Assembly (NCBI GenBank): GCA_000004985.1
Contig: GG739254.1
From: Naegleria gruberi
Lineage: Eukaryota
Reading direction: 5' to 3' (one strand)
Length of the DNA: 2,644 nt
A program made the translations under genes and the position numbers. The notes beneath the pieces are model-generated. The model worked only from the letters and a program-made list of their open reading frames with translations. It was not told the DNA's origin and did no database searches. This document shows, piece after piece, positions 21-2,385 of this stretch (the first letter of the stretch is position 1; every line of letters begins with the position of its first letter).

Positions 21-57
21 TATTGAGTGTCTAAAGATTTTGGCAGCTAACATGAGG
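21..57 (+). repeat. tRNA 5'-flank repeat, copy 1 (TATTGA..TAAAGATTTTGGCAGCTAACATGAGG)
   Basis: The 26-nt core at 32-57 matches 191-216 at 25 of 26 positions (A50 versus C209). An upstream TATTGA is shared (21-26 versus 182-187). The last GG of the repeat forms nt 1-2 of the tRNA. Confidence 0.6.
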
Positions 58-128
58 AACAGTAGTTCAGCGGGGAGAATATGGGGCTCTCACCCCCAAG
101 GTCGGTGGTTCAACTCCATCTTGTTTCT
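56..128 (+). tRNA. tRNA-Glu, anticodon CUC (73 nt, no intron, no encoded CCA)
   Basis: Cloverleaf folded by hand. Acceptor GGAACAG (56-62) pairs with TTGTTTC (121-127), 7 bp including 2 G-U. U8 is present. D stem GTTC (65-68) pairs with GAAT (77-80). D loop AGCGGGGA carries A14, G18G19 and A21. Anticodon stem TGGGG (82-86) pairs with CCCCA (94-98). Anticodon loop CTCTCAC (87-93) has U33, anticodon CTC at 89-91 and A37. Variable loop is 5 nt, AGGTC. T stem GGTGG (104-108) pairs with CCATC (116-120). T loop TTCAACT (109-115) has T54, T55, C56, A58 and a G53-C61 pair. Internal A-box-like TAGTTCAGCGG and B-box-like GGTTCAACTCC are present. Discriminator is T128. Confidence 0.7.
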
Positions 129-129
129 C

Positions 130-133
130 TTTT
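130..133 (+). terminator. RNA polymerase III T-run (TTTT) two nt after the tRNA 3' end, within T-rich context TTTCTCTTTT
   Basis: Four consecutive T at 130-133 immediately downstream of the tRNA and followed by A7. Four T is the minimal Pol III terminator, so this is weakish. Confidence 0.4.
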
Positions 134-163
134 AAAAAAACACTGCCGCCATTATCAAGTTTG

Positions 164-169
164 TTTATT
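164..169 (-). promoter_or_regulatory. Candidate AATAAA polyadenylation signal for the PARP mRNA
   Basis: Minus-strand AATAAA lies about 68-73 nt downstream of stop codon 239..237 within an AT-rich 3' UTR. The signal is eukaryote-typical but not proven here. Confidence 0.3.
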
Positions 170-181
170 AGATTTGATAGC

Positions 182-226
182 TATTGATTTTAAAGATTTT
201 GGCAGCTACCATGAGGTTTCTCTTTT
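182..226 (+). repeat. Copy 2 of the tRNA flank unit with the tRNA body missing (leader+GG fused directly to TTTCTCTTTT trailer)
   Basis: 191-216 aligns to 32-57 and 217-226 (TTTCTCTTTT) aligns to 124-133. The 66 nt between them in copy 1 (58-123, the tRNA body) are absent. Copy 2 lies in the 3' UTR of the minus-strand PARP gene. Confidence 0.55.
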
Positions 227-236
227 AGAATCTTCA

Positions 237-1651
237 CTATTGTTTAATTTCAACCATAAACTTGATTGTGCATTGAGCTGAGTTATATACTATAAATTCA
301 TTATTAAGCAAGAATCCATTCTTTGCTTTTGCAAATAATGAATCATAATCTTGTCCATTATAATTTATCAAGGATTCTTCTGTGAAATCCGAAAGTGTAT
401 GATCCCAATTAGTAACTTCCAATTGTTTGCCAACATGTACATCAAATACAGCAAGATAGGCCTTATCTGAAGAACCTCCTGCCCAATAGGATCCTGTGAA
501 ACTGGTATATCCGAGAGATTTCTTGAATTTGTCAGCTTTTTTGGTTATGGAAACAGGTCAGTAATAAAATAGAAACTTACCGAAATAATTACCATGTCCA
601 AACATTCTACCATTAGCAGCAGGTCTCAATTGAAGACCATTAATCATGATGGACAAAAAGTTTGCATTTTTAGAGCCATGCCAGAACAATTCTCTCTTTT
701 GATTTCGTTTCTTTTGGACAAAATTGTCGAATAGTGTTTGAGTTTGATTATTGGTAACTCTGAAAGCTCTGTAAAACAAGTGACTATCTGAGCCCATCAT
801 CTTCTGAGGAGTTTAATTTCATCTTGTGAAGCATCCTCCACAACAAGTCCATTCTTTTTAAGGAAATCAGGTTGATCAGATTGATCATGTTTTGTAATCT
901 TGACTTGAGTAGCCATGACATCAAGAATTTCCTGCTGATCATCTAATAGTGAAGCAGCACTTTCCTTATTACTCTTATCATTAATCAAATAATCCTGAAC
1001 TTTCTTCATCTTTCTTGGAATGACAGCGTACAATTTCAGTAATTTTTCATTGAATGAATTCAGAAAATCCTCATCATTCTTGAAATTCTCATTCACCTTA
1101 TACAATTCATCCAAAATAGATTGAGCAGAGTCCAATTGTTCCTTTGTAACACTTCCAACTCCAACATTGTAATTGCTTACAATGGAAATATTCGAAAAAT
1201 TATTCAATTCTGAAATTAAACTCTTCACATCTGGACTGGAATTCTCTAAATAAATATCATCCCCTGCATTGGTCATATCAGATCCCAAATTTGTCATATC
1301 TACATAGCCTTTCTTCATCTTGGATCGAACTAAACTATCCCATTCACTCAAACTGGCTTTGATTGCAATTCCTGTGGCACCAACTCGACCATAGACAATA
1401 TGAATTTCACCATCCTTTTCAGTCATTTCATAATACTTGTTATTATTCTTGGAGGAGACCATAATTAATTTACAATATCTTCCGGCAGTGTTTGTGAAAT
1501 TTTTCACACTCGAGGAAAAGCTTCGGATTGGATGAATCGTGGAGGAAAAATTATTAACTCTCTTCATCATGCTCATGCTTCTGTTGAGCATTAGTGGTGA
1601 AATAATCTCCCGATGGGAAGCAATAGATAAAGTACAGTTTAGTTTGCGCAT
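237..1651 (-). CDS. Poly(ADP-ribose) polymerase family protein (WGR - helical/PRD domain - ART catalytic domain), about 455 aa; interrupted by one intron and one frame discontinuity
   Basis: Segment A is 1651..800, frame of ORF 797..1684, with the first ATG at 1651 in context AAAAAAATGC; the ORF-track M at 1684 is TTG. Segment B is 800..581, frame of ORF 558..800. Segment C is 535..240 with stop TAG 239..237. Family motifs: WGR-like YGRVG at 1393..1379 followed by KKGYVD. Helical-domain matches to PARP1/2 include VTKEQLDSAQSILDEL, LYAVIPRKM and VVEDASQDEIKLLRR. Catalytic residues: ELFWHGSK (HGS at 680..672), GNYF-ADKFKKSLGY (Tyr 587..585, Ser and second Tyr conserved) and LLNNEFIVY (catalytic Glu 299..297). 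The ORF-track ORFs 797..1684, 558..800 and 237..422 are pieces of this one gene. Confidence 0.85.
536..580 (-). other. Spliceosomal intron, 45 nt, phase 1 (GTAAGT ... TACTGAC branch-like ... AG)
   Basis: Minus-strand sequence is gtaagtttctattttattactgacctgtttccataaccaaaaaag. Splicing joins ...GNYF(g) to (ct)GAC..., giving the PARP-consensus YFAD motif and continuing the open frame to the C-terminal NEFIVY segment. Unspliced, the frame stops 8 codons later at TGA 560..558. Confidence 0.75.
797..803 (-). other. Frame discontinuity (-1) inside the PARP coding sequence; in-frame TGA at 799..797
   Basis: The upstream frame ends ...EIKLLRR-TGA. The downstream PARP-homologous frame (MMGSDSHLFYRAF...LFWHGS) is offset by -1 and is open only from 812. 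Both sides align to PARP1/2 (EIIRKYVKNTHATTH...), so the switch must occur within about 812-800. There is no room for a canonical intron. Confidence 0.6.
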
Positions 1652-2277: not shown

Positions 2278-2385
2278 GAAAATTAAAAATAAACGTGAGC
2301 GTGGCCAAGTACCTAACAATCATCCATTACTAAAATTAAAAATAATTGTGAGTTGTAATGAAAATCTAAAATAAGAGAATGTGAG
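2278..2385 (+). repeat. Three spaced copies of a motif of about 22 nt, AAAATTAAAAATAA-NN-GTGAG(T/C)
   Basis: 2279-2292 and 2332-2345 are identical 14-mers (AAAATTAAAAATAA), followed by ACGTGAG and TTGTGAG respectively. A degenerate third copy CTAAAATAAGAGAATGTGAGT sits at 2365-2385, immediately before the TATA box. Confidence 0.35.

What the first reader, a model, noticed from the sequence alone, without database searches (positions are those of the whole stretch)
21..230. The tRNA's leader and trailer recur 160 bp downstream with the tRNA body absent
Copy 1 is TATTGA..TAAAGATTTTGGCAGCTAACATGAGG-[66-nt tRNA body]-TTTCTCTTTT. Copy 2 (182-226) is TATTGA..TAAAGATTTTGGCAGCTACCATGAGG-TTTCTCTTTT, with one mismatch in 26 nt and the body exactly missing. 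In copy 2 the first two tRNA nucleotides (GG) abut the last six. Candidate explanations are a tandem duplication followed by internal deletion of one tRNA copy, a 'ghost' tRNA locus, or a dispersed flank element that tRNA genes insert into. The junction shows only 1 nt of microhomology (G) and no target-site duplication. This argues against SINE or retroelement insertion and favours deletion. The near-perfect conservation of 26 nt of non-coding leader suggests a recent event or a functional upstream element.
Basis: seen in the sequence. Interest (0 to 1): 0.55.

Follow-up and report, generated by a model that had tools for sequence, protein, structure and literature searches.

The report
Leftover flanks of a duplicated tRNA
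One copy of a Naegleria gruberi chromosome region carries, just after a glutamate tRNA gene, a 93-base insert containing a second copy of that gene's flanks without the gene; it looks like an inert scar of sloppy DNA repair or copying and is absent from a near-identical relative.

Summary
The 35-37 nt upstream of tRNA-Glu(CTC) (56-128) recur at 182-216. The 11 nt TTTCTCTTTTA (124-134) recur at 217-227. The 66 nt between them (58-123, tRNA positions 3-68) are absent from the second copy.

The window is a whole 2,644-bp scaffold of Naegleria gruberi. A 98.4%-identical metagenome contig (L001) has one leader-tRNA-trailer unit and no ghost or spacer, so the ghost is a local structural polymorphism. 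It is the only large difference in 1.87 kb.

The ghost has no tRNA fold and no internal Pol III promoter. It sits 10 nt from the stop codon of a convergent PARP-like gene. Its sequence equals the single-copy allele's flanks except for one clustered change. The 47-nt spacer matches nothing local. The ghost-downstream join coincides with a 5-nt TAGAA microhomology.

I favour one complex template-switching repair or replication event beside the tRNA gene. SINE or retroposition is excluded. A dispersed flank element could not be tested because the N. gruberi assembly was unreachable. The finding is ordinary and of low interest.

The parts
21..55 (+). Leader copy 1: 35 nt directly upstream of the tRNA (TATTGAGTGTCTAAAGATTTTGGCAGCTAACATGA). 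The repeat runs on into tRNA positions 1-2 (to 57).
   Evidence: The same leader is present in L001 with 2 mismatches.
56..128 (+). tRNA-Glu(CTC), 73 nt, with an intact cloverleaf, U8, A14, G15, G18, G19, A21, U33, a TTCAA T-loop, and A-box-like and B-box-like sequences.
   Evidence: ARAGORN. Rfam RF00005 scores 56.5 bits against a gathering score of 29. Cloverleaf is -17.9 kcal/mol against an MFE of -18.8. Conserved in L001 apart from T-loop position 59.
124..134 (+). Trailer copy 1: the last 5 nt of the tRNA plus CTTTTA. This includes the T4 run (130-133) expected to act as the Pol III terminator.
   Evidence: The terminator role is inferred from general Pol III biology.
135..181 (+). 47-nt spacer of unknown origin, absent or unalignable in the single-copy allele. 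It carries AATAAA on the minus strand at 164-169.
   Evidence: Searches show window-specific insertions at 140-159 and from 172. There is no significant local similarity on either strand (all p > 0.1). The longest exact match is an 11-mer at 1483-1493 on the minus strand.
182..216 (+). Ghost leader (copy 2): TATTGA-TTT-TAAAGATTTTGGCAGCTACCATGAGG, ending with tRNA positions 1-2.
   Evidence: It shares the ACC variant with the L001 leader.
217..227 (+). Ghost trailer (copy 2): TTTCTCTTTTA, joined directly to the ghost leader. The following AGAA|TCTTCAC join lacks the 19 nt that L001 has between two TAGAA repeats.
237..1651 (-). Convergent WGR/PARP-like gene. Its stop codon is at 237-239, 10 nt from the ghost. 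It has a 45-nt intron at 536-580 and a 1-nt deletion (frameshift) near 804 relative to L001 and to the main-scaffold protein. It is context for the ghost, not part of the repeat.

Best explanation
The ghost is an inert scar left by one complex, error-prone repair or replication-restart event immediately downstream of the tRNA-Glu(CTC) gene, on one Naegleria gruberi haplotype.

Proposed sequence of events (inferred): a break or stalled fork arose in the short spacer between the Pol III terminator and the stop codon of the convergent PARP-like gene. The repairing DNA end then copied short patches of nearby sequence while switching template. It copied the tRNA 3' end plus terminator (11 nt), jumped across a 1-nt G microhomology to the 35-nt leader, and added about 47 nt from an unidentified template. 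It rejoined using a TAGAA microhomology. The process resembles polymerase-theta-type templated insertion or microhomology-mediated template switching.

The result is a 93-bp block (135-227) that looks like the tRNA gene's flanks with the body removed. The block has no tRNA fold and no internal promoter, so I expect it to do nothing.

Shown: the repeat, its absence from a near-identical locus, the lack of tRNA features, and the clustering of changes. Inferred: the break, the order of copying, and the enzyme.
For: (1) The repeat is real and far beyond chance.

(2) The window is a complete 2,644-bp N. gruberi scaffold. The 98.4%-identical contig L001 has the same upstream flank, leader, tRNA, trailer and PARP 3' end, but no spacer and no ghost.

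(3) The spacer plus ghost is the only large difference in 1,874 aligned columns. Elsewhere there are only three 1-nt indels and one 6-nt indel.

(4) Explained stepwise, the block needs at least 3-4 separate indel events within about 100 nt. Under the background indel rate, the Poisson probability is 0.002 for 3 or more events and 0.0001 for 4 or more. This favours one complex event or a hotspot.

(5) The ghost is identical to the L001 leader and trailer, including ACC where window copy 1 now has AAC. The only exception is one clustered change, GTGTA to TTT. It is therefore young and was copied imprecisely at one spot.

(6) Junction features fit microhomology-mediated joining. There is 1 nt (G) at the leader-trailer join. 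A 5-nt TAGAA direct repeat in L001 flanks exactly the 19 nt missing at the ghost-downstream join.

(7) The spacer has no local source, as expected for filler DNA.

(8) The ghost is not detected as tRNA even at E <= 1 and has no unusual fold on either strand.

(9) Background from papers: Pol theta makes templated extensions in cis and in trans during end joining (PMC4912351). tRNA genes are replication-fork arrest sites in yeast (bioRxiv 10.1101/082008). N. gruberi has 924 tDNAs, and tDNA loci turn over quickly (PMC2888827).
Against: There is no outgroup, so the polarity (ghost gained here versus lost in L001) is inferred, not shown.

A 35-nt templated tract is long for typical Pol-theta insertions. 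The 47-nt filler has no identified template.

I did not establish whether Naegleria has a Pol theta homologue.

The near-coincidence of the copied tracts with the tRNA ends is not predicted by this model. About 1.4% of random deletions in a 114-nt unit would land that close. A deletion model with endpoints in the acceptor-stem arms explains this more naturally.

The second N. gruberi copy of the locus, on the 339-kb scaffold, could not be retrieved.
Confidence: 0.45

Rival explanations
1. Stepwise origin. The roughly 114-bp leader-tRNA-trailer unit was tandemly duplicated, with filler or since-diverged spacer between the copies. A later 66-bp deletion removed tRNA positions 3-68 from the copy nearest the PARP-like gene, leaving a gene relic.
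For: The two copies are head-to-tail and in the same order. The deletion endpoints lie inside the two arms of the acceptor-stem inverted repeat (54-62 and 121-129). This is the classic position for structure-associated deletions and explains why almost exactly the tRNA body is missing; only about 1.4% of random deletions would do so. tDNA relics and rapid tDNA turnover are well documented, and N. gruberi has 924 tDNAs (PMC2888827).
Against: The model needs the duplication, the 47-nt spacer, the 66-nt deletion, the 19-nt TAGAA-flanked loss and the GTGTA-to-TTT change as separate events. They would all fall within about 100 nt and within the time in which the ghost gained no point substitution. 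The spacer resembles neither flank of the single-copy allele. As single-stranded DNA the tRNA region is not unusually stable (z = 0.19), and the predicted fold does not contain the acceptor stem.
Confidence: 0.3
2. The ancestral state was a tandem pair or small array of tRNA-Glu units, each made of leader, tRNA, trailer and 47-nt spacer. L001 collapsed to one unit by unequal crossing-over, and the window haplotype lost the body of its second unit.
For: The L001 leader looks like a hybrid. Its 5' part (GAGTGT.TAAAG) resembles window copy 1, and its ACC resembles window copy 2. The spacer would simply be the inter-unit spacer, which can only be seen when there are two or more units. Mismatch density in the leader-tRNA-trailer region (3 in 114) is somewhat higher than in the rest.
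Against: It still needs the body deletion and the 19-nt difference. The hybrid pattern rests on two sites and is equally explained by one new SNP (A50) in the window. No two-tRNA allele has been seen.
Confidence: 0.12
3. The ghost is an assembly or cloning artefact. The window is a tiny unplaced Sanger-era scaffold, and the ghost (or the loss of a real second tRNA body) arose in the clone library or in the assembly.
For: The scaffold is only 2,644 bp. It carries a 1-nt frameshift in the PARP-like gene relative to both other versions, which suggests low coverage or low quality.
Against: A chimeric read would not produce a clean leader-trailer join embedded in otherwise collinear sequence. Both sides of the block align perfectly with an independent contig.
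Confidence: 0.06
4. The leader plus trailer is a dispersed flank element or 'empty site' that tRNA genes occupy or leave. In that case the ghost is an unoccupied or vacated landing pad, or a functional upstream Pol III element kept by selection.
For: N. gruberi has about ten times more tDNAs than kinetoplastids (PMC2888827), so some proliferation mechanism exists. The ghost occupies, relative to the PARP-like gene, the position where L001 has the filled gene.
Against: The join is not at the tRNA boundaries; 2 + 5 nt of tRNA remain. There are no terminal inverted repeats or target-site duplications. The leader was not found in JGI metagenome contigs, GTDB genomes or IMG/VR. The tRNA body was likewise not found there. 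The window carries both a filled and an empty copy side by side, which is not a simple presence/absence allele. The leader is no better conserved between alleles than neutral flank.
Confidence: 0.04

Closest known systems
tRNA gene relics and pseudogenes from local tDNA duplication and decay (rapid tDNA turnover in eukaryotes; Bermudez-Santana et al. 2010, PMC2888827)
   Same: It is a partial copy of a tRNA locus lying next to an intact gene, in a genome with a very high tDNA count (924 in N. gruberi). It is polymorphic between close relatives.
   Different: Typical relics keep a mutated or truncated tRNA body. Here the body is almost wholly absent and only the flanks are copied, so tRNA-finding tools would never list it.
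Templated insertions from polymerase-theta-mediated end joining, or microhomology-mediated template switching (PMC4912351, PMC7165422, PMC4215184)
   Same: The insert is a patchwork of tracts copied from sequence within about 160 nt, plus filler of unknown source. Junctions show 1-5 nt microhomology. An allele without the insertion exists. All changes are clustered at one site.
   Different: The copied tracts (35 and 11 nt) and the filler (47 nt) are at the long end for Pol theta scars. The enzyme and the initiating break are not shown, and presence of the pathway in Naegleria was not checked.
tRNA-derived SINEs and retroposed tRNA copies
   Same: Both are a sequence related to a tRNA locus found a second time in the genome.
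   Different: There is no tRNA body, no internal A or B box, no CCA or poly(A) tail and no target-site duplication. The ghost also contains upstream leader sequence that is removed by RNase P and so would be absent from a copy made from the mature tRNA.
Structure-associated deletions with endpoints at the base of a hairpin or inverted repeat (general knowledge of the slipped-mispairing model, not checked here)
   Same: The missing 66 nt are bounded by the two arms of the acceptor-stem inverted repeat.
   Different: The stem is weak as DNA, with two G.T pairs and four A-T pairs out of seven. It is not part of the predicted single-strand DNA fold. There is only 1 nt of direct-repeat homology.

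Membership tests
tRNA gene (Rfam RF00005), applied to copy 1 at 56-128 | Covariance-model score above the gathering threshold, with a cloverleaf | tested here: met
   56.5 bits against a gathering score of 29, E = 6.8e-11. ARAGORN calls tRNA-Glu(CTC). Cloverleaf energy is within 1 kcal/mol of the MFE.
tRNA gene (Rfam RF00005), applied to the ghost at 182-227 | Any tRNA-like score or cloverleaf, and internal A and B boxes | tested here: not met
   There is no second match in the window even at E <= 1. ARAGORN finds one gene only. The ghost retains only tRNA positions 1-2 and 69-73.
Simple tandem duplication | Two head-to-tail copies in the same orientation | tested here: met
   Leader and trailer recur in the same order and strand.
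Simple tandem duplication | Copies abut, or are separated only by sequence that belongs to the duplicated unit | tested here: not met
   The 47-nt spacer has no significant similarity to either flank, to L001 or to the rest of the window. Tandem Repeats Finder reports nothing.
SINE / retroposed tRNA copy | tRNA-derived body with an internal Pol III promoter, a 3' tail (CCA or A-rich) and flanking target-site duplications | tested here: not met
   The body is absent, there is no tail, and no direct repeats flank 182-227.
Templated insertion (TMEJ / MMBIR-type scar) | Inserted tracts identical to nearby sequence, and an allele lacking the insertion | tested here: met
   The 35-nt and 11-nt tracts match sequence 93-159 nt upstream. 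L001 lacks the block.
Templated insertion (TMEJ / MMBIR-type scar) | Microhomology at each junction | tested here: inconclusive
   There is 1 nt (G) at the leader-trailer join and 5 nt (TAGAA) at the ghost-downstream join relative to L001. No microhomology could be scored at the spacer junctions because the spacer template is unknown.
Templated insertion (TMEJ / MMBIR-type scar) | Dependence on Pol theta or on break-induced replication | not testable with these tools
   This needs genetics, or at least the N. gruberi proteome. The literature search returned no paper linking Naegleria and Pol theta among those listed.
Dispersed repeat / MITE-like flank element | Many copies at unrelated genomic sites | not testable with these tools
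   The N. gruberi assembly could not be reached. There were no exact hits in JGI metagenomes, GTDB genomes or IMG/VR, but these collections are poor proxies for the Naegleria genome.
Dispersed repeat / MITE-like flank element | Terminal inverted repeats and target-site duplication | tested here: not met
   No inverted repeat pair brackets 21-134 or 182-227.

The most novel reading that the evidence does not exclude
The leader-trailer pair could be a reusable 'socket' for tRNA genes in Naegleria. In that reading tRNA bodies are copied into, or precisely lost from, a conserved roughly 46-nt flank cassette at the DNA level, perhaps guided by the tRNA transcript or an R-loop over the gene body. 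The ghost would then be an empty or vacated socket, and the mechanism might help explain how N. gruberi came to have about 924 tDNAs.
Probability: 0.04. Interest if true: 0.7.

Novelty: new member of a known kind. Interest (0 to 1): 0.2.

Why it matters
It matters little beyond this locus. It is a clean, small example of how the DNA next to a highly transcribed Pol III gene can be scrambled, leaving a flank-only relic that tRNA-finding software cannot see. If such flank-only relics are common near the roughly 900 tDNAs of N. gruberi, they would record how tRNA genes turn over in this genome. They would also show which repair pathway, templated end joining or duplication followed by deletion, drives that turnover. 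For annotation, the finding flags this 2.6-kb scaffold as a divergent and possibly degenerate haplotype of a locus on a large scaffold, not as a separate gene.

Tried and rejected
(1) Fetching the second N. gruberi copy of the locus. Exact-protein look-ups for P0001, P0002 and P0121 all returned 'not on record', so the 339-kb scaffold could not be read.

(2) Looking for the leader or the tRNA body elsewhere. Two JGI metagenome scans, two GTDB genome scans and two IMG/VR scans returned nothing.

(3) Reaching more alleles through the neighbouring gene seen in L001. The 46-aa fragment found no homologue, and an earlier attempt used a wrong frame.

(4) Searching with the C-terminal exon. This found only the main-scaffold model P0121 and a distant 56%-identity protein.

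(5) Finding a local template for the 47-nt spacer, including the idea that its 3' half is a third degenerate leader copy. Smith-Waterman scores against every local target were no better than shuffles (p = 0.11 to 1.0). The best exact matches, an 11-mer and a 9-mer, are at or near chance level.

(6) A hairpin or cloverleaf-driven deletion. The DNA fold of 40-140 is not unusually stable (z = 0.19) and lacks the acceptor stem, so there is no thermodynamic support.

(7) A structured RNA in the ghost. Folds of both strands are indistinguishable from shuffles, and there is no Rfam hit.

(8) A distant relative. Contig L002 (47% protein identity) has no tRNA near its PARP homologue, so it cannot serve as an outgroup.

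(9) Bacterial promoter and terminator scans were not run, because the sequence is eukaryotic.

Full report
WHAT IS THERE. The window is AT-rich eukaryotic DNA. A protein search with the long minus-strand ORF returned a 100%-identical 'predicted protein [Naegleria gruberi]' whose contig is 2,644 bp long, the same length as the window. The window is therefore a whole small scaffold of the N. gruberi assembly.

ARAGORN finds one tRNA, Glu(CTC), at 56-129. Rfam's tRNA model places it at 56-128 with 56.5 bits against a gathering score of 29. It has the usual invariant residues. Its cloverleaf energy of -17.9 kcal/mol is within 1 kcal/mol of the minimum free energy.

A WGR/PARP-like gene converges on the tRNA from the other strand at 237-1651. 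It has a 45-nt intron at 536-580, read directly from the sequence as GTAAGT...TACTGAC...AG.

CHECK OF THE OBSERVATION. The repeat finder reports 32-57 against 191-216 at 25 of 26, and 116-137 against 209-230, whose core TTTCTCTTTTA (124-134 and 217-227) is identical. A search for the 26-mer allowing three mismatches finds only these two sites, and none in 200 dinucleotide shuffles. TATTGA (21-26 and 182-187) extends the repeat. Between it and the 26-mer, GTGTC in copy 1 is TTT in copy 2.

The segment absent from copy 2 is 58-123, which is 66 nt and corresponds to tRNA positions 3-68. The ghost therefore keeps G1, G2 and positions 69-73, so the loss is near-exact rather than exact. There is 1 nt of microhomology (G57/G123) and no target-site duplication.

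THE KEY COMPARISON. The same protein search found a 99%-identical protein on an ENA metagenome contig (P0003). I fetched that contig as L001 (2,094 bp). L001 aligns to the window at 98.4% identity over 1,874 columns.

L001 contains the same upstream flank, the same leader, the same tRNA (one T-loop difference at window position 114), the same trailer and the same PARP 3' end. It has only one leader-tRNA-trailer unit. Where the window has 92 nt between TTTCTCTTTTA and (T)AGAATCTTCAC, L001 has about 18 nt (GAACATTTTTTAATTAA). MAFFT describes this as two window-specific insertions, of 20 nt at 140-159 and 54 nt at 172-225.

Everywhere else the two sequences differ only by 21 further substitutions, three 1-nt indels and one 6-nt indel. 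The ghost is thus a local structural polymorphism and the only large one in the region.

A third version exists on a 339-kb N. gruberi scaffold (proteins P0002 and P0121). Its DNA could not be retrieved. Naegleria is described as mainly a heterozygous diploid (PMC9928731). The small scaffold is therefore most simply a divergent haplotype of that locus; this is an inference.

WHAT THE GHOST IS NOT. It is not a tRNA: there is no Rfam hit at E <= 1 and no ARAGORN call. It has no A or B box, because those lie in the missing body. It has no CCA or A-rich tail, no flanking direct repeats and no bracketing inverted repeats. This excludes a SINE or retrocopy and gives no support to a MITE-like element.

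Neither strand folds better than shuffled controls. The leader is no better conserved between the window and L001 (2 differences in 37 nt) than the neutral background of 1.6%. Nothing therefore points to a constrained upstream element.

Exact-match scans for the leader and for the tRNA body found nothing in JGI metagenome contigs, GTDB genomes or IMG/VR. These collections are poor proxies for the Naegleria genome, so 'dispersed in the genome' remains formally untested.

HOW IT MOST LIKELY AROSE. Four observations shape the mechanism.

(a) Apart from the clustered GTGTA-to-TTT change, the ghost is identical to the L001 leader and trailer. That includes ACC where window copy 1 now has AAC. The ghost is therefore young and was copied from an ACC-type leader.

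(b) The 47-nt spacer has no detectable source in the window or in L001 on either strand. Smith-Waterman scores against shuffles gave p = 0.11 to 1.0, and the best exact matches are an 11-mer and a 9-mer. A plain tandem duplication would not create such a spacer.

(c) At the ghost-downstream join, the window lacks 19 nt that L001 has between two TAGAA repeats. This is a 5-nt microhomology signature.

(d) Read stepwise, these are at least three or four independent indel events within about 100 nt. At the background rate of 4 events in 1,664 nt, the Poisson probability is 0.002 for three or more and 0.0001 for four or more.

Clustered patchwork copies of nearby sequence, filler DNA and short microhomologies at the joins are what error-prone templated end joining or microhomology-mediated template switching produce. 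Pol theta is reported to extend ends using templates in cis and in trans (PMC4912351), and complex rearrangements by template switching are described in PMC4215184. tRNA genes are known replication-fork arrest sites in yeast (bioRxiv 10.1101/082008), which gives a plausible reason for a break just past the terminator.

I therefore favour one complex event, with confidence 0.45.

THE MAIN RIVAL. It has one real advantage. The deletion endpoints lie in the two arms of the acceptor-stem inverted repeat, which would explain why almost exactly the body is missing. Only about 1.4% of random deletions in a 114-nt unit would land that close. However, the DNA fold of the region is not unusually stable (z = 0.19) and does not contain that stem.

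OTHER RIVALS. A third possibility is an ancestral tandem pair that collapsed in L001 (0.12). It is suggested by the hybrid look of the L001 leader but rests on two sites. An artefact (0.06) is unlikely because both sides of the block are collinear with an independent contig, although the scaffold is tiny and carries a frameshift. A dispersed or mobile flank cassette is given 0.04.

Polarity is not proven, because no outgroup was available. The only more distant relative recovered (L002, 47% protein identity) has no tRNA at the site.

FUNCTION. None is expected. Without A and B boxes, Pol III should not be recruited by the standard type-2 route. At most, the ghost lengthens the 3' untranslated region of the PARP-like gene and moves the active tRNA gene about 93 nt further from that gene's stop codon. 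An AATAAA on the minus strand at 164-169 inside the spacer is noted but was not tested.

COMPARISON WITH KNOWN THINGS AND NOVELTY. This is one more case of rapid local turnover at tRNA loci. N. gruberi has 924 tDNAs, and tDNA positions turn over at rates similar to unconstrained sequence (PMC2888827). It is also one more case of a templated-insertion or duplication-deletion scar. Its only unusual aspect is that the relic consists of flanks only. I rate it a new member of a known kind, with interest 0.2.

The most novel reading not excluded is a reusable flank 'socket' for tRNA bodies. I give it about 4%.

Noticed in passing
window 797-810 (minus-strand gene): There is a 1-nt deletion relative to L001 and to the main-scaffold protein P0002 (...EIKLLKKMMGSD...). 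It shifts the frame of the WGR/PARP-like gene between the regulatory and catalytic domains. It is either a sequencing error in a low-coverage scaffold or a dead allele.
   Followed up: partly
window 536-580, minus strand: This is a 45-nt spliceosomal intron (GTAAGT...TACTGAC...AG) inside the PARP catalytic domain. In the window it contains an in-frame stop. In L001 it is open in frame, and the metagenome gene caller read straight through it (P0003).
   Followed up: partly
window 237-1651 (protein level): Apart from Naegleria-like sequences, the best named homologues of this PARP-like protein are bacterial (Spirosoma, Fibrella, Larkinella, Fibrisoma; 33-42% identity). This hints at transfer between bacteria and amoebae in one direction or the other.
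   Followed up: no
N. gruberi 339-kb scaffold (proteins P0002, P0121; DNA not retrievable): The main-scaffold annotation splits the gene into two models, with Thr/His-rich tails between ...GNYF and DKFKK.... That allele may carry extra sequence in or near the intron, or the models may be wrong.
   Followed up: no
window 164-169, minus strand: An AATAAA lies inside the 47-nt spacer, about 70 nt past the PARP-like stop codon. If it is used as a poly(A) signal, the ghost would be transcribed as part of that gene's 3' UTR.
   Followed up: no
window 114 (tRNA position 59): The T-loop base differs between alleles: C in the window and A in L001. With A the cloverleaf is the minimum-energy fold. With C an alternative fold is 0.9 kcal/mol better.
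   Followed up: yes
window 2279-2299 and 2332-2352: A direct repeat, AAAATTAAAAATAA(AC/TT)GTGAG, occurs twice 53 nt apart at 90% identity in the very AT-rich ORF-free region upstream of the PARP-like gene. A second pair lies at 1840-1857 and 1889-1906.
   Followed up: no
L001 (ENA ERZ929261, run ERR1078381, PRJEB11402): A metagenome assembly contains a contig 98.4% identical to this N. gruberi scaffold, so a close relative of strain NEG-M was present in that sample. L001 1955-2094 (+ strand) also starts a neighbouring gene (MSKRTTSHDPLSNQ...) that has no detectable homologue.
   Followed up: partly
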